A stretch of 64,000 bases of DNA from Candidatus Woesearchaeota archaeon (GCA_043817645.1 JBDRGP010000034.1:15020-79019); one strand, 5' to 3'. Positions 23,630-33,087 are shown, counted from the first letter of the stretch. Numbers and translations: made by a program. The notes: generated by a model not told the origin, from the letters alone.

Positions 23630-23698
23630 TGCGAACGTTCGCACCAATCTTAGTACGAATCTTAGTACGAATGTTTGCATTATAGAGTAGTTATAAAT
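23630..23698 (+). promoter_or_regulatory. candidate operator/promoter: 14-bp perfect palindrome, 12-bp tandem direct repeat and TATA box upstream of the KaiC-like gene
   Basis: tgcgaacgttcgca (23630-23643) is a perfect palindrome. aatcttagtacg is repeated in tandem (23646-23657, 23658-23669). ttataaat (23691-23698) lies about 30 nt before the ATG at 23727. Confidence 0.4.
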
Positions 23699-23726
23699 CT
23701 TTTTAAAAAACAACACAGGTAAAAAA

Positions 23727-24842
23727 ATGATGAAAACAAAAGAGGCAATACTCAAATATCTCAAAAAAACAAAGCAACCATCCTCAACCCATGATATTTC
23801 TAAAGCTGTAAAAAAACCATGGCACAGCGTCCATAATAGATTATTAAGATTAGAACTAGAGGGCAAAGTAAACTCTCATAGACTAAAAAGACTAAATCTC
23901 TGGTATTTAGACAACCAAGATTTTCCAAAATATGAAGACGGAACAAAAACACAAACCCCCCTAAAGAAAGAACCCATACCAGAAAGAAAAGTACCTTCAG
24001 GGGATCCTCAAGATAGAGAAGAGCGCCTAAAACAAATATCCAAAGAAAGAAGAAAGGCTAAGGAAATAATAGAAAGAGCAGCAATTCCAGAAAAAAAGAG
24101 AGCAAAAAAAGAATATATCTGGACAGGTATTGAAGGATTTGATAAACTTCTAGATTTTGGAATTCCAAAAAAAAGTGCTGTGATTGTCGCTGGAGGAACA
24201 GGGAGTGGAAAAACGATATTTTGCTTGCAAATAATGTACAACACACTAAAAAAGGGGAAGAAATGCTTATTTCTAACATTAGAAGAATCAAAAGAAAGGT
24301 TAATAGATCACATGGGTGATTTCGGATGGGAGATTGAAGAATACATTAATAATAAGCAACTACTAATCCACAGGATAAATCCATTTGATTTAAAGAGAAG
24401 CATGGACGCACTTCTTGCCCAAATCAAAGGAGAGTTGTTAATAGAAGTAGATCCTATAATACTTCCTGGAGAATTTGATCCCGATATTGTTTTTGTTGAC
24501 TCATTAACAGCAATTGCGGCTGCATTTACAGGACAAGAAGAAACATATCGTATTTACATAGAGCAATTTTTTAGATATCTAGAAAAAACAAAAGCAACAT
24601 CCTTTCTAATTTCTGAGACAGATCAAATACCAACAAAATACAGCCCTACAGGAACTGAAGAATTTCTAGCTGATGGCGTTATTGTTCTTTATATCACAAA
24701 AAATAAAAGCGAAAAGGCAAAGGGCATTGAAATCCTGAAATTAAGAGGCGGGGGCCACCAAAGAAAGATAGTACCGTTTATTATTGAAAACAAAAAGGGC
24801 ATTACAATCTATCCTGAAAAAGAATTATATGTTGAGATTTAG
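23727..24842 (+). CDS. winged-helix + KaiC/RadA-like RecA-superfamily ATPase (COG0467-type)
   Basis: 371 aa. The N-terminal about 60 aa look wHTH-like. Then GIEGFDKLLDFGIPKKSAVIVAGGTGSGKTIFCLQ (Walker A), LFLTLEES, and a C-terminal ILKLRGGGHQRKIVPFIIENKKGITIYP as in KaiC-like ATPases. Confidence 0.65.
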   Translation: MMKTKEAILKYLKKTKQPSSTHDISKAVKKPWHSVHNRLLRLELEGKVNSHRLKRLNLWYLDNQDFPKYEDGTKTQTPLKKEPIPERKVPSGDPQDREERLKQISKERRKAKEIIERAAIPEKKRAKKEYIWTGIEGFDKLLDFGIPKKSAVIVAGGTGSGKTIFCLQIMYNTLKKGKKCLFLTLEESKERLIDHMGDFGWEIEEYINNKQLLIHRINPFDLKRSMDALLAQIKGELLIEVDPIILPGEFDPDIVFVDSLTAIAAAFTGQEETYRIYIEQFFRYLEKTKATSFLISETDQIPTKYSPTGTEEFLADGVIVLYITKNKSEKAKGIEILKLRGGGHQRKIVPFIIENKKGITIYPEKELYVEI

Positions 24843-31210: not shown

Positions 31211-32531
31211 AAGATTAATAATAATTCTTATTTGTATGAGTTTAGCATATTCAGTACAGGCACAGCTAACCTTATCTGAAAAAGAGACTAGAGCCAATCA
31301 ACTCATGGACGAAATAAATGACTACGTAAATGAAGTCAACGACAAAGGCTACCCAGATGACACAATAAACCGCCTATACAAACAAGCACAGGAAGACTAC
31401 AAAAACTTCAAAGATGAATTCAGTCTTGCAGAATTAGGGGAACTATCTGTTCAAATCAAAAAAAGAAAAGATAACATTCTAGAGATCAATAGGTTCATTG
31501 AACAAGTAAACAAAAATGTCGAAAAATACGCAAATAACAAAAGATTGAATACTAGCCAATATGAAACCACTAGAATAGAAATTTCTAGATTACTACTCAA
31601 AAGAGAATATACCCTGGCATATTCTTTAGCCTTAACCATAGAAACAGATATGGAACTAACCGTTCTAGATTATATCTTTGAATCAGAGGTGGAAGTTGAT
31701 AAATTAAAAAGTAGTAATTTTTCCACCATCTATTTCGAAGATTTATTGCTCTCAATGAAAAACGCCTTTAGCGGAGCAAAAACAGAGGGGATATCACTTA
31801 AAATAAAAGGACAGGAAGATAGCTTCAAAAAAGATTATGCCCAGGGACTAGTCAAAAACATCGAGAATAAAAAGAACAATCTAAAATTTGTGGATTATTC
31901 CTTAATTTTACAGAACACAGAGGAAGTAATTTTCAAAAAAGAGCAGGTGTACAGCATTAAAAGTAGGATGGATAAATTAAAATCAAAAATTGATGAGTAC
32001 TCCGCACAAGATATTGATACATCAAAAACCTCAGCAATATTCGAAGAGGCAATAGTCGCATTCAATGAAGAAAATTTGGATAAAGCAGATGTCTTGCTTA
32101 TAGAAGGAGAGAATGGACTAGACGCTGAAAAAGCAAAACTAAACATAACCCAACTTATTGCAAGAGAAAGTGTAGGCCTCTTAAAAAAACATTGGAAAAG
32201 TATAACGATAGGCTTGGCAACTGTTTTCCTTTTAAGTTATATTATTTATAAAAAAGAAAAAGTAAATAGATTAAAAAGGAGACTGCAAAGATTAAAAATA
32301 GAAAAAGACGCTATAATAGACCTAATAAAAGAAAGCCAAAAAGAGAGATTTATCAAAAAAACATTGGCTGAGTCTCACTACAGGATAAAAATGGAAAAAT
32401 ATGATGAGAGATTAAATGAAGTCAAGAAGGATATCAAAACTATTGAAACGGTTTTAATAAACCTTGCCCGAGGGAAAGACAAACAAAAAGATGAAGATAA
32501 AAATGATAAAAATAAAAGAAAGGTCAATTAA
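31197..32531 (+). CDS. secreted coiled-coil protein with C-terminal TM anchor and cytoplasmic tail homologous to the tail of the giant protein
   Basis: 444 aa with signal peptide MKKSRRLIIILICMSLAYSVQAQ, a long coiled coil and the TM ITIGLATVFLLSYIIY. The post-TM segment (RLKRRLQRLKIEKDAIIDLIKESQKERFIKKTLAES) parallels that of the giant protein (KIFYLNKEEENVISLIKEAQRGYYVKKEIDF). Overlaps the giant gene by 14 nt. Confidence 0.5.
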   Translation: MKKSRRLIIILICMSLAYSVQAQLTLSEKETRANQLMDEINDYVNEVNDKGYPDDTINRLYKQAQEDYKNFKDEFSLAELGELSVQIKKRKDNILEINRFIEQVNKNVEKYANNKRLNTSQYETTRIEISRLLLKREYTLAYSLALTIETDMELTVLDYIFESEVEVDKLKSSNFSTIYFEDLLLSMKNAFSGAKTEGISLKIKGQEDSFKKDYAQGLVKNIENKKNNLKFVDYSLILQNTEEVIFKKEQVYSIKSRMDKLKSKIDEYSAQDIDTSKTSAIFEEAIVAFNEENLDKADVLLIEGENGLDAEKAKLNITQLIARESVGLLKKHWKSITIGLATVFLLSYIIYKKEKVNRLKRRLQRLKIEKDAIIDLIKESQKERFIKKTLAESHYRIKMEKYDERLNEVKKDIKTIETVLINLARGKDKQKDEDKNDKNKRKVN

Positions 32532-33087
32532 AAATTATTTTAAATATAACAAGTTTAATCTTTTAGCCATAGTCCTATTCTCTCTCCTTTGGTCTCTAGC
32601 CTACTACTTAATAGACTCCATACCAAACAGTTTTTTCAAACTAGTTCTTTTTATGTTTTTTCTTAATATTATCTTAGCCCTACTGATACTTTTTGTACAA
32701 AGATTTGGAGCCGTTTTATTATTTTATCTTATAGAAGCTGTCAAACAATTTAAGGTACCTTATCTAGAAAGCTTTCAACAAGACACAATATTAGTTCTCA
32801 TCATTATTGGTTTAATCTTCGAATTATTATTATTTATTAGTCAAACTACTTTCAAAAAGAGTAGTTACCATGAAATCTTTGTCCTTGCAATCTCAAATGC
32901 TATCATGCCAATTTTATTTAGTTTCTTCATATCTTTCGACTTCATAATAGAAAATTTAGGCAACGTTCTCAACTTATCCCTAATCTTTTTCATAATCAAT
33001 CTGATCGGGTGCGCTTGTGGTTTTTTAATTTGGCAACATATAAGAAGCTCCAAAAAGATTCTCAAATTTGAATACCTAAATAGTTAA
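32464..33087 (+). CDS. polytopic membrane protein (unknown); real start probably at an internal Met
   Basis: 207 aa ORF with at least 5 TM helices. Its first about 20 codons overlap the preceding gene, so an internal start (MKIKMIKIK...) is likely. Confidence 0.3.
   Translation: MPEGKTNKKMKIKMIKIKERSIKNYFKYNKFNLLAIVLFSLLWSLAYYLIDSIPNSFFKLVLFMFFLNIILALLILFVQRFGAVLLFYLIEAVKQFKVPYLESFQQDTILVLIIIGLIFELLLFISQTTFKKSSYHEIFVLAISNAIMPILFSFFISFDFIIENLGNVLNLSLIFFIINLIGCACGFLIWQHIRSSKKILKFEYLNS

What the first reader, a model, noticed from the sequence alone, without database searches (positions are those of the whole stretch)
23630..33087. Candidate surface/attachment module: operator-like palindrome, wH-KaiC-like ATPase, 2121-aa beta-helix giant protein, coiled-coil anchor sharing its C-terminal module, and a membrane protein
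Four plus-strand genes joined by 3-nt, 14-nt and 68-nt overlaps. The ATPase gene is preceded by a perfect 14-bp palindrome (tgcgaacgttcgca), a 12-bp tandem repeat and a TATA box. The giant protein has a signal/anchor, a very long PbH1-type parallel beta-helix array saturated with N-glycosylation sequons, a Gly/Ala hinge, a TM and a basic coiled-coil cytoplasmic tail. The next gene (444 aa) has the same architecture: signal peptide, extracellular coiled coil, TM and a tail beginning with the same L-I-K-E-(A/S)-Q...KK motif. Shared anchor tails with different ectodomains, coupled to a cytoplasmic RecA/KaiC-type ATPase with a DNA-binding head, look like a regulated surface-display or host-contact system. 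I cannot match it to a named system.
Basis: partly seen in the sequence, partly recalled or inferred. Interest (0 to 1): 0.75.

Follow-up and report, generated by a model that had tools for sequence, protein, structure and literature searches.

The report
Conserved DPANN surface-protein operon with KaiC regulator
These four genes are one copy of a widespread but unnamed gene cluster of tiny symbiotic (DPANN) archaea: a giant sugar-coated surface protein, a helical partner with the same membrane anchor, a small vitamin-transporter-like membrane protein and a DNA-binding KaiC-type ATPase. It is a good candidate for how these cells display and control a host-contact structure.

Summary
The window is a Candidatus Woesearchaeota chromosome. 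The four + strand genes are real and tightly packed.

**Shared anchor.** The two surface proteins share about 190 aa: outside helices, one TM helix and a cytoplasmic helix motif (BLASTP E=7e-14). This module has no Pfam model. It defines a large family: 921 cluster representatives at E<=1e-10, of which the best 149 were verified. Family members carry variable heads, mostly laminin-G lectins and here a beta-helix.

**Gene order.** Large gene, mid gene, then a ~190-aa membrane gene recurs in many independent contigs. In 39 of the 149 verified representatives the large and mid proteins are fused.

**Regulatory arm.** Of 20 related loci with at least 8 kb of flank, 11 carry a KaiC homolog and 15 a KaiC or an inactivated KaiC. 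KaiC usually lies within 2 kb. The winged-helix head also occurs as a separate small gene just upstream of the large gene. The palindrome TGCGAA-N2-TTCGCA and a second degenerate site are conserved upstream of the closest ortholog.

**Best reading.** A regulated, heteromeric, glycan-binding surface complex. Host contact, and any physical link between the ATPase and the tails, are inferred only. No literature describes the cluster.

The parts
23630..23643 (.). Operator-like site 1: perfect palindrome TGCGAA-CG-TTCGCA
   Evidence: Read. It is unique in the window at 0-1 arm mismatches. The closest ortholog's promoter has TGCGAA-GC-TTCGCA after the same AATTC (L022:274-287).
23646..23672 (.). 12-bp tandem repeat AATCTTAGTACG x2.2 between the two sites; each unit holds a half-site-like TACGAA
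   Evidence: TRF, 100% match, score 54. L022 has a different direct repeat (TTAAGTTTAG) in the same spacer.
23666..23679 (.). Operator-like site 2: degenerate palindrome TACGAATGTTTGCA, directly upstream of the BRE/TATA region
   Evidence: 2 arm mismatches. L022 has TGCGAAGATTGGCA (1 arm mismatch) at the equivalent place, also followed by TTAT...
23691..23698 (+). TATA-box-like TTATAAAT, 29-36 nt before the ATG; implies a leaderless or very short-leader transcript
   Evidence: Sequence. The promoter role is inferred from known archaeal promoter geometry and was not tested.
23727..24842 (+). wH-KaiC ATPase (371 aa). Winged helix about aa 1-65; basic linker; KaiC/RecA-like domain aa 126-371 with Walker A GGTGSGKT (aa 156-163), catalytic EE (TLEES, 184-188) and Walker B (253-259)
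   Evidence: PF06745 E=2.5e-49. wH families are weak. The wH profile finds the same domain fused to KaiC or free-standing in related loci. Motif positions.
24845..31210 (+). Giant surface glycoprotein (2121 aa). N-terminal anchor aa 14-32; acidic/sequon-rich N-region; parallel beta-helix about aa 300-1150; conserved Ig-like/NPCBM_assoc-like stalk about aa 1277-1790 with Cys knob (1604-1623) and Gly/Ala hinge (1631-1650); anchor module
   Evidence: The C-terminal 850 aa are 35% identical to the giant of L002 (E=8e-140) and related to that of L004. The stalk is conserved in the consensus of 30 large relatives.
30251..31012 (+). Large-type anchor module of the giant protein: TPR-like helices, TM helix (30563-30619), cytoplasmic LIKEAQ helix motif (30692-30709), and a second copy of the 65-aa tail motif (aa 1991-2056)
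   Evidence: Module HMM domains 1803-1989 and 1991-2056, E=1.5e-66. BLASTP to the 444-aa protein.
31197..32531 (+). Mid-size partner (444 aa). Sec-type signal peptide (aa 1-22, ..VQA|Q); all-helical ectodomain of repeated helical bundles; mid-type anchor module aa 222-417 (31860-32447) with TM helix 32199-32249 and LIKESQ 32322-32339
   Evidence: AF2 pLDDT 92.4, all helices, with one helix running through the membrane, aa 333-385. Module HMM E=1.9e-53. Orthologs in L002 (E=8e-40) and L004 (2e-19).
32464..33087 (+). Polytopic membrane protein with ECF S-component-like fold (207 aa from TTG; more likely 198 or 194 aa from ATG 32491 or 32503)

Best explanation
This is one compact operon of a Woesearchaeota (DPANN) chromosome. 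It is the local copy of a widespread, so far unnamed DPANN gene cluster with an envelope arm and a regulatory arm.

**Envelope arm (anatomy shown).**
- A large N-glycosylated surface protein carries a variable distal head. Here the head is a ~850-aa parallel beta-helix. In half of the sampled relatives it is a ConA/laminin-G lectin.
- The head sits on a conserved Ig-like stalk.
- A smaller all-helical partner protein is encoded next to it.
- Both proteins end in paralogous copies (large-type and mid-type) of a ~190-aa anchor. The anchor has TPR-like helical hairpins outside, one TM helix, and one or two copies of a 65-aa cytoplasmic helix motif with an invariant Gln.
- A six-helix membrane protein with the fold of ECF-transporter S-components is translationally coupled to the partner gene.

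**How it assembles (inferred).** Large and mid proteins are fused into one polypeptide in about a quarter of the family. I therefore infer that they pair through their anchor modules into a heteromer, probably docked on the S-component-like protein. The lectin or beta-helix head would bind glycans of a host cell or another surface.

**Regulatory arm (association shown, mechanism inferred).** The wH-KaiC protein belongs to the archaeal KaiC-type signalling network, which comprises KaiC, inactivated KaiC, CheY-like receivers, histidine kinases and small wH or RHH DNA binders. All of these recur beside these clusters. I infer that its winged helix binds the two conserved TGCGAA-N2-TTCGCA sites just upstream of the TATA box. 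The nucleotide state of the KaiC domain would then tune transcription of the whole operon, its own gene included.
For: **Organism.** Topo VI A and B genes lie next to the cluster. The proteins are held in NCBI as Candidatus Woesearchaeota MAG proteins.

**Shared module.**
- BLASTP E=7e-14 between the two proteins.
- A profile search finds 921 representatives at E<=1e-10, with lengths of 231-5086 aa.
- All 149 best representatives hold a full module, and 39 hold two.

**Two old subtypes.**
- Mid-mid pairs average 80 bits and large-large pairs 106 bits.
- Mid-large pairs average 37 bits, and 34.5 bits within the same locus.
- The second copy in fused proteins is mid-type.

**Heads of 30 large relatives.** Laminin_G_3 in 15, NPCBM_assoc in 15, Big domains in several, beta-helix/NosD in 2.

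**Extracellular location of the giant's ectodomain.** 78 sequons against 46+-5 in shuffles, almost none next to the membrane or in the tail.

**Synteny.**
- The same gene order is seen in L004, L007, L012-L017, L021, L023, L025, L026, L028, L032, L040 and L042.
- MEM is present in 21 of 39 dereplicated loci.

**Membrane protein.** ECF S-component fold.

**KaiC association.**
- In 20 loci with >=8 kb of flank, KaiC is present in 11 and KaiC or inactivated KaiC in 15.
- Distances from KaiC to the module genes are 0, 0, 0, 3, 20, 232, 236, 279, 439, 565, 1321, 1366, 1709 and 6420 bp.
- Most of these loci were found through the module or the membrane protein, not through KaiC.

**DNA-binding parts.**
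- The wH domain is fused to KaiC in the window, L004, L007, L013, L022 and L029.
- It is a free 66-79-aa gene upstream of the large gene in five loci. It abuts that gene in L015, L019 and L021. It lies about 2.5 kb and 1.2 kb upstream in L020 and L028.
- A 45-52-aa RHH gene sits in the same place in L004, L007, L013, L028, L035 and L046/47.

**Operators.** Both sites are conserved in the 62%-identical ortholog's promoter, while the flanking sequence diverged.
Against: - No expression, localisation or binding data exist for any member.
- No host is known for this organism.
- The palindrome is conserved in only one relative, the only close one available. More distant loci show no shared motif.
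- The wH assignment rests on sub-threshold Pfam hits.
- About a quarter of well-flanked loci show neither KaiC nor inactivated KaiC. About a third lack the membrane protein. The cluster is therefore modular, not fixed.
- The window itself lacks the inactivated KaiC, the receivers and the kinase seen elsewhere.
- The helical partner has no informative structural neighbour.
- An S-component fold hints at small-molecule binding, which the adhesion model does not use.
- Members between E=1e-24 and 1e-10 were not individually checked.
Confidence: 0.55

Rival explanations
1. Contact-coupled uptake machine. The S-component-like protein is the working part and binds a small metabolite or vitamin. The paired single-pass proteins hold it at a host contact site. 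Their conserved cytoplasmic helices act like the coupling helices of EcfT, docking the RecA-like KaiC ATPase that powers transport.
For: - Conserved polar and charged residues in its helices (HLVRKAGSATLFY, FELIF, N161, W181).
- Translational coupling to the mid gene.
- KaiC genes sometimes directly replace or abut the membrane gene downstream of the mid or fused gene (L020, L044, L048).
- DPANN archaea must import most metabolites (general knowledge; context in the papers).
Against: - No EcfT (CbiQ) or EcfA-type ABC genes appear in any locus listing.
- KaiC-like ATPases are not known to energise transporters.
- The KaiC here carries a DNA-binding head and sits with receivers, kinases and small DNA-binding proteins. 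That points to regulation.
- About a third of the loci lack the membrane protein.
- There is no sequence similarity to any S-component family.
Confidence: 0.12
2. Structural cell coat. The large and mid proteins are the two components of the S-layer or envelope scaffold of these archaea, canopy plus stalk like SlaA/SlaB. They are not an adhesin, and the neighbouring regulators are incidental or tune coat synthesis.
For: - Glycosylated large protein plus smaller helical, C-terminally anchored partner in one operon. This resembles the two-gene slaAB arrangement (my own knowledge).
- Conserved membrane-proximal stalk across the family.
- NPCBM_assoc/CARDB-like domains are common in archaeal envelope proteins.
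Against: - The distal heads differ between orthologous positions (beta-helix against laminin-G).
- Sizes range from about 1000 to more than 5000 aa.
- Several large paralogs can sit in tandem (L014, L019, L044).
- Some copies are broken (L013, L016).
- This variability is typical of adhesins under diversifying selection and unusual for an essential lattice protein. Tight linkage to sensors and regulators is also not typical of S-layer genes.
- No similarity to any solved S-layer protein.
Confidence: 0.15
3. Outside-in signalling receptor. The heteromer works like an integrin. Ligand binding by the head is passed through the helical/TM module to the cytoplasmic tails, which recruit or release the wH-KaiC protein (or inactivated KaiC) and so change gene expression.
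For: - The conserved cytoplasmic 65-aa motif has an invariant Gln and conserved Tyr residues, repeated 1-3 times.
- A continuous helix runs from the ectodomain through the membrane.
- Consistent co-location with KaiC, inactivated KaiC and receivers.
Against: No evidence of any tail-ATPase contact. Co-location is equally explained by simple transcriptional control. The histidine kinases with their own sensor domains in several loci already provide an input route.
Confidence: 0.1
4. The ATPase gene is merely a neighbour. The wH-KaiC protein regulates something else, and only the three envelope genes form a unit.
For: - One full-length wH-KaiC homolog (L001) has no module gene nearby.
- Orientation and distance of KaiC vary among loci.
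Against: - 2-nt spacing and no separate promoter-like gap before the giant gene in the window and in L022.
- KaiC lies within 2 kb of module genes in 13 independent loci.
- The same wH domain occurs as a free gene abutting the large gene.
Confidence: 0.05

Closest known systems
Archaeal KaiC-like ATPase signalling hubs (Makarova, Galperin and Koonin 2017, as cited in PMC5847659 and PMC6393860), including inactivated KaiC domains, receiver proteins and HTH outputs
   Same: - Single-domain KaiC/RecA-like ATPase with intact Walker A/B and catalytic EE.
- Variable N-terminal domains in close homologs (hemerythrin, wH).
- Neighbouring inactivated KaiC (DUF7504-like), CheY-like receivers and histidine kinases in related loci.
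   Different: - Here the hub is consistently linked to a specific set of envelope genes that has not been described.
- In the window only the wH-KaiC protein is present, without inactivated KaiC or receivers.
- I could not read the 2017 paper itself. I therefore cannot exclude that it lists this neighbourhood.
GvpD/GvpE control of gas-vesicle genes in haloarchaea (a RecA/KaiC-like P-loop protein acting on a transcription activator; my own knowledge)
   Same: A KaiC-superfamily ATPase working with a DNA-binding protein to control an adjacent structural gene cluster. There is a weak GvpD_P-loop match.
   Different: - The GvpD match is below cut-off (19.4 against 24 bits).
- The DNA binder here is a winged helix or RHH, fused or adjacent, not a GvpE-type protein.
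- The target genes are unrelated.
ECF-transporter S-components (YkoE, ThiT, RibU, BioY, PanT, FolT, BtuM, CbiM)
   Different: - No sequence-level membership.
- No EcfT or EcfA genes nearby.
- Encoded in an operon with two single-pass surface proteins, which is not a known S-component context.
Large laminin-G/beta-helix surface proteins of DPANN archaea proposed as host-interaction factors (e.g. PMC5498576, PMC7443923, PMC6642349)
   Same: Very large secreted or anchored proteins with lectin-like or beta-helix domains in small-genome symbiotic archaea.
   Different: - Those reports do not describe the shared anchor module, the paired partner, the S-component-like protein or the KaiC linkage.
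- No sequence comparison with the published proteins was made here.
Two-component S-layer SlaA/SlaB of Sulfolobales (my own knowledge)
   Same: A large glycoprotein plus a smaller helical, C-terminally membrane-anchored partner encoded together.
   Different: - No sequence or fold match.
- Here both proteins are membrane-anchored and have long cytoplasmic tails.
- The heads are variable.
- Regulators are linked.

Membership tests
KaiC superfamily, single-domain archaeal KaiC-like ATPase (PF06745) | Match to the KaiC domain model above the curated cut-off | tested here: met
   168.2 bits against a cut-off of 26.6, E=2.5e-49, covering profile positions 3-231 of 231.
KaiC superfamily, single-domain archaeal KaiC-like ATPase (PF06745) | Intact Walker A, Walker B and catalytic Glu pair | tested here: met
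   GGTGSGKT (aa 156-163), DIVFVDS (253-259), TLEES (184-188), read from the sequence.
Circadian KaiC (two-domain clock protein) | Two tandem KaiC domains; score above the equivalog cut-off | tested here: not met
   One domain only. TIGR02655 gives 89.8 bits against 546; NF006799 gives 128 against 408.
ArlH/FlaH of the archaellum | Score above the ArlH equivalog cut-off and arlI/arlJ neighbours | tested here: not met
   NF052589 gives 66 bits against 215. There are no T2SSE/T2SSF genes in the operon.
Named archaeal KaiC subfamily KaiC_arch_3 (TIGR03880) | Score above the curated cut-off | tested here: not met
   143.4 bits against 249.45. It is the best-scoring NCBIfam model but below the cut-off.
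Winged-helix DNA-binding domain | Match to a wH/HTH family model | tested here: inconclusive
   - FaeA, TBPIP, DprA_WH, HTH_24 and z-alpha hit at E 9e-4 to 9e-3, all just below cut-off.
- The homologous free-standing 79-aa protein of L019 hits TBPIP, Fe_dep_repress and HTH_11 at about 1e-3.
- The domain is recurrent and mobile between fused and free forms.
Right-handed parallel beta-helix (PbH1) proteins | Beta_helix/NosD repeat models above cut-off | tested here: met
   PF13229 194.6 bits; PF05048 181.6 bits, 7 stretches each; TIGR03804 repeat 57.5 against 19.45.
NosD copper-maturation protein | Score above the NosD subfamily cut-off; nos gene context | tested here: not met
   TIGR04247 gives 96.3 bits against 300. 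There are no nos genes in the window region.
ECF transporter S-component | Six-helix S-component fold | tested here: met
ECF transporter S-component | Sequence membership in a known S-component family | tested here: not met
   No Pfam or NCBIfam hit at E<=0.01.
ECF transporter S-component | Partner EcfT and EcfA/A' genes; ligand binding | tested here: inconclusive
   No CbiQ/EcfT or ABC ATPase appears in the gene lists of the window region or of the related loci. Shared ECF modules can be encoded elsewhere. Ligand binding cannot be tested with these tools.
Archaeosortase/PGF-CTERM sorting | TM helix plus short basic tail at the extreme C-terminus, with a PGF motif; sortase with conserved Cys/Arg | tested here: not met
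   The TM helices are followed by tails of about 90-200 aa. There is no PGF motif. The only Cys residues of the membrane protein are not conserved.
The unnamed anchor-module family defined here | About 190-aa unit: TPR-like helices, one TM helix, cytoplasmic L-x-K-x-x-Q ... Y ... Y-x-x-R-L helix | tested here: met
   Both window proteins match the family profile: E=1.5e-66 for the giant and 1.9e-53 for the 444-aa protein. Q381 is invariant, and E369, L376 and Y395 nearly so, in 35 mid-size members.
Known anti-phage defence systems (PADLOC) | Match to a defence protein model | tested here: not met
   Only weak P-loop matches for the ATPase (mad8 E=1.9e-7, AbiO E=2.2e-4). Nothing for the other three proteins.

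The most novel reading that the evidence does not exclude
The cluster encodes a new kind of trans-membrane apparatus. A heterodimer of single-pass surface proteins and an S-component-like membrane protein would be physically coupled, through the conserved cytoplasmic tail motif, to a KaiC-type ATPase. Contact with a host glycan would either drive ATP-dependent uptake of a host metabolite or signal directly to the DNA-bound wH-KaiC protein. That would be a first molecular handle on how DPANN archaea sense and exploit their hosts.
Probability: 0.17. Interest if true: 0.85.

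Novelty: new variant of a known kind. Interest (0 to 1): 0.62.

Why it matters
DPANN archaea are abundant, mostly uncultured and thought to live attached to other cells. 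Almost nothing is known about the molecules that make or regulate that contact.

This finding turns an anonymous "hypothetical protein" region into a defined, recurrent four-part system:
- It contains two undescribed protein families: an anchor module with about 900 or more cluster representatives, and an S-component-like membrane protein.
- Rosetta-stone fusions give a clear prediction of a heteromeric complex.
- There is a concrete cis-element (TGCGAA-N2-TTCGCA) and a candidate binder (the wH domain) that can be tested in vitro.

It also gives the proposed archaeal KaiC signalling network a specific output, an envelope-protein operon, in a lineage where no such output is known. If the ATPase proves to be physically coupled to the tails, or the S-component-like protein proves to transport something, the interest would be much higher.

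Tried and rejected
- **Word-indexed homolog search** with the 444-aa protein found only itself. Exact look-up of its contig failed. The exhaustive profile search was needed.
- Alignment A5 was too diverse for the metagenome scan, so A8 was used instead.
- **Archaeosortase-like role for the membrane protein:** rejected, because its Cys residues are not conserved.
- **Inactivated KaiC (DUF7504-like) gene in the window:** none found.
- **Upstream 381-aa gene as part of the system:** rejected. It is LAGLIDADG-like and not syntenic.
- **Shared palindromes in more distant loci:** none found beyond L022.
- **PADLOC:** no defence system.
- **Literature:** searches for DPANN+KaiC+surface proteins, Woesearchaeota+S-layer+giant, DUF7504, and DPANN+ECF S-component found no description of this cluster. 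The Makarova 2017 KaiC paper is not held.

Full report
**1. What is in the window.**

The window is low-GC (about 33%) archaeal DNA. Topo VI subunits A and B lie just downstream of the region on the minus strand. The proteins of the region are held in NCBI as MAG proteins of a Candidatus Woesearchaeota archaeon, on a 105-kb contig.

- The ATPase stop and the giant gene's ATG are separated by 2 nt. They do not overlap.
- The 68-nt overlap of the last gene depends on a TTG start. Alignment with homologs points to ATG 32491 or 32503.

The upstream gene (22281-23426) is LAGLIDADG-like and is not conserved next to the cluster elsewhere. The downstream gene is a convergent PLD-like gene. The unit is therefore these four genes.

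**2. Upstream region.**

- The 14-bp palindrome (23630-23643), the 12-bp tandem repeat (23646-23672) and TTATAAAT (23691-23698) are all present.
- A second, degenerate palindrome, TACGAATGTTTGCA, lies at 23666-23679, directly before the TATA region.
- In the whole 64 kb, only these two sites have <=2 mismatches in the arms TGCGAA/TTCGCA.

The closest ortholog of the ATPase is P0004, 62% identical, on the 2-kb contig L022. Its promoter has the same layout: AATTC-TGCGAA-GC-TTCGCA, then a spacer with its own direct repeats, then TGCGAAGATTGGCA, then TTAT... and a TATA-like box. The arms are kept while the centre and the spacer changed. That is what a protein-binding site looks like. This is the only close relative available, and more distant loci share no such motif.

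**3. The ATPase.**

- Residues 126-371 are a complete single KaiC/RecA-like domain (PF06745, E=2.5e-49) with intact Walker A, Walker B and catalytic EE.
- It scores far below the cut-offs for circadian KaiC, ArlH/FlaH, RadA/RadB and the named archaeal KaiC subfamilies.
- About 1900 proteins match at E<=1e-20. The listed ones are 42-65% identical and carry different N-terminal regions, often a hemerythrin domain.
- The first 65 residues give sub-threshold hits to several winged-helix families.

A profile of this head finds it in two arrangements:
- Fused to KaiC in L004, L007, L013, L022, L029 and L001.
- As a free 66-79-aa gene upstream of the large surface gene in five loci. It abuts that gene in L015, L019 and L021. 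It lies about 2.5 kb and 1.2 kb upstream in L020 and L028.

In other loci a 45-52-aa ribbon-helix-helix gene occupies that position (PF01402 for the L004 copy).

**4. The shared anchor module.**

The giant protein (aa about 1803-1989) and the 444-aa protein (aa 222-417) align over 169 residues at E=7e-14. The alignment runs across the pre-TM helices, the TM helix and the post-TM helix. The giant protein repeats the post-TM motif once more.

A two-sequence profile, searched exhaustively, found 1525 cluster representatives at E<=1e-3, 921 at E<=1e-10 and 48 at E<=1e-30. I checked the best 149:
- Every one holds a full module.
- 120 hold one extra tail repeat.
- Lengths run from 231 to 5086 aa.
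- 39 hold two full modules, with TM helices placed as expected for a fusion of a large and a mid protein: out-TM-in-TM-out-TM-in.

Lower-scoring members were not individually checked.

Across loci, the modules fall into two types:
- Large-large pairs average 106 bits and mid-mid pairs 80 bits.
- Large-mid pairs average 37 bits, and 34.5 bits within one locus.
- The second copy in fused proteins is mid-type.

The two copies in the window are therefore old paralogs with distinct roles, not a recent duplication. The module has no Pfam or NCBIfam model. A single hairpin resembles a TPR.

**5. The ectodomains.**

The giant protein has the following parts:
- an N-terminal anchor;
- an acidic region;
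- a long PbH1 beta-helix, about aa 300-1150;
- a membrane-proximal stalk of Ig-like and NPCBM_assoc-like domains, with a Cys-rich knob and a Gly/Ala hinge. This stalk is conserved in other large members.

Sequons number 78 against 46+-5 in shuffles. They avoid the membrane-proximal helices and the tail. This fits an extracellular, N-glycosylated ectodomain and a cytoplasmic tail.

In 30 large relatives the heads are Laminin_G_3 in 15 and beta-helix/NosD in 2. NPCBM_assoc is found in 15 and Big domains in several.

The 444-aa protein has a Sec-type signal peptide. It models with very high confidence (pLDDT 92.4) as a chain of helical bundles, with one helix running through the membrane. No solved structure is a specific match.

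**6. The membrane protein.**

**7. Synteny.**

Loci were collected through four different anchors:
- KaiC homologs;
- the membrane protein;
- module-bearing giants;
- mid-type proteins in metagenomes.

All ORFs were scanned with my own profiles. GC content of the loci ranges from 27 to 46%, so the loci come from a compositionally diverse set of genomes.

The order large, mid, membrane gene recurs again and again, often with 4-nt overlaps. Among 39 dereplicated module loci:
- The membrane gene is present in 21.
- KaiC is present in 14, inactivated KaiC in 16, and either one in 21.
- Among the 20 loci with at least 8 kb of flank, KaiC is present in 11, KaiC or inactivated KaiC in 15, and the membrane gene in 14.
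- In 13 of the 14 KaiC-positive loci, the KaiC gene lies within 1.7 kb of the module genes.

Related loci add CheY-like receivers, histidine kinases, PAS and hemerythrin proteins. In L014 and L015 a ParA/MinD-like ATPase sits between the large and mid genes. The window's copy is a minimal version, with none of these extras.

**8. Interpretation.**

Shown:
- the anatomy;
- the family;
- the two module subtypes and their fusions;
- the S-component fold;
- the gene linkage with KaiC-type signalling proteins and small DNA binders;
- the conserved operator-like sites.

Inferred:
- The large and mid proteins pair through their modules. This rests on Rosetta-stone logic.
- The heads bind glycans, by analogy with laminin-G and beta-helix domains.
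- The complex mediates contact with a host or surface. Large laminin-G proteins are proposed host-interaction factors in DPANN papers.
- The wH domain binds the palindromes.
- The KaiC domain modulates that binding. This is by analogy with the proposed archaeal KaiC hubs (PMC5847659, PMC6393860) and with GvpD/GvpE (my own knowledge).

I put 0.55 on this reading. The rivals are a structural coat (0.15), a contact-coupled uptake machine built around the S-component-like protein (0.12), an integrin-like receptor signalling to KaiC (0.10) and chance adjacency of the ATPase (0.05).

**9. Novelty.**

Each ingredient has precedents: KaiC hubs, giant DPANN surface proteins and S-component folds. Not found in Pfam, NCBIfam, PADLOC or the searchable literature were:
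- the anchor module;
- the membrane-protein family;
- the conserved combination of the two with KaiC-type regulators.

All named members are "hypothetical protein". I could not read the 2017 KaiC paper, which might mention such neighbourhoods. I rate this a new variant of a known kind, with moderately high interest.

Noticed in passing
window 1-16000 and 33000-50000: GC skew is very negative (-0.4 to -0.5) where genes lie on the minus strand and near zero where they lie on the plus strand. This indicates an unusually strong purine excess on the coding strand in this genome.
   Followed up: partly
window 18720-19550 (+) and 36847-37881 (+): Two DDE_Tnp_1 transposase genes bracket the region that holds the cluster, the PLD gene and the Topo VI genes. 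Whether they are copies of one IS was not checked.
   Followed up: no
window 13729-18622: A 756-aa T2SSE-type ATPase gene (minus strand) lies next to three ~180-aa polytopic membrane ORFs and two coiled-coil ORFs, none with a Pfam hit. Two of the membrane ORFs (17532-18068 and 18068-18622) are clear paralogs, 41% identical; the third matches only weakly. This may be a type IV pilus-like locus.
   Followed up: partly
window 22281-23426 (+): A 381-aa ORF directly upstream of the cluster resembles a LAGLIDADG_3-type protein of L020 (E=1.6e-13). It had no significant Pfam hit of its own.
   Followed up: partly
window 18400-18413: A third, weak palindrome-like match, TAAGAACGTTCACA (3 mismatches), lies inside a membrane-protein ORF. 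It is probably chance.
   Followed up: no
L004:1-9800: A DPANN-type contig carries CheA, CheC, CheD, two CheY-like receivers, an inactivated KaiC and a HAMP histidine kinase directly upstream of the KaiC-giant-mid-membrane cluster. A chemotaxis set next to this cluster is unexpected for such organisms.
   Followed up: no
L014:7602-8360 and L015:7915-8751: A ParA/MinD-like ATPase gene (AAA_31, CbiA, ParA) is inserted between the large and the mid gene in two loci.
   Followed up: partly
L013:1852-8797; L016:8721-10309 (= L030): The large gene (L013), or the mid and membrane genes (L016), are split into several ORFs. This is either pseudogenisation or assembly errors.
   Followed up: no
L015 (CAYTDO010000008.1): A complete cluster sits on a contig binned as 'uncultured Methanosarcinales archaeon', at 38.7% GC. 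This is either mis-binning or presence outside DPANN.
   Followed up: no
L005/L006/L018, L009, L016: Fic-domain genes recur within a few kb of the membrane-protein gene. In L005 the membrane gene stands alone behind a 52-aa RHH gene, without any module gene.
   Followed up: no
window 33084-34085 (-) and L019:3904-4881: The PLD-like gene that converges on the cluster (4-nt overlap of the stop regions) has a 40%-identical ortholog 5 kb from the cluster in L019. This may be residual genome synteny or a loose association.
   Followed up: no
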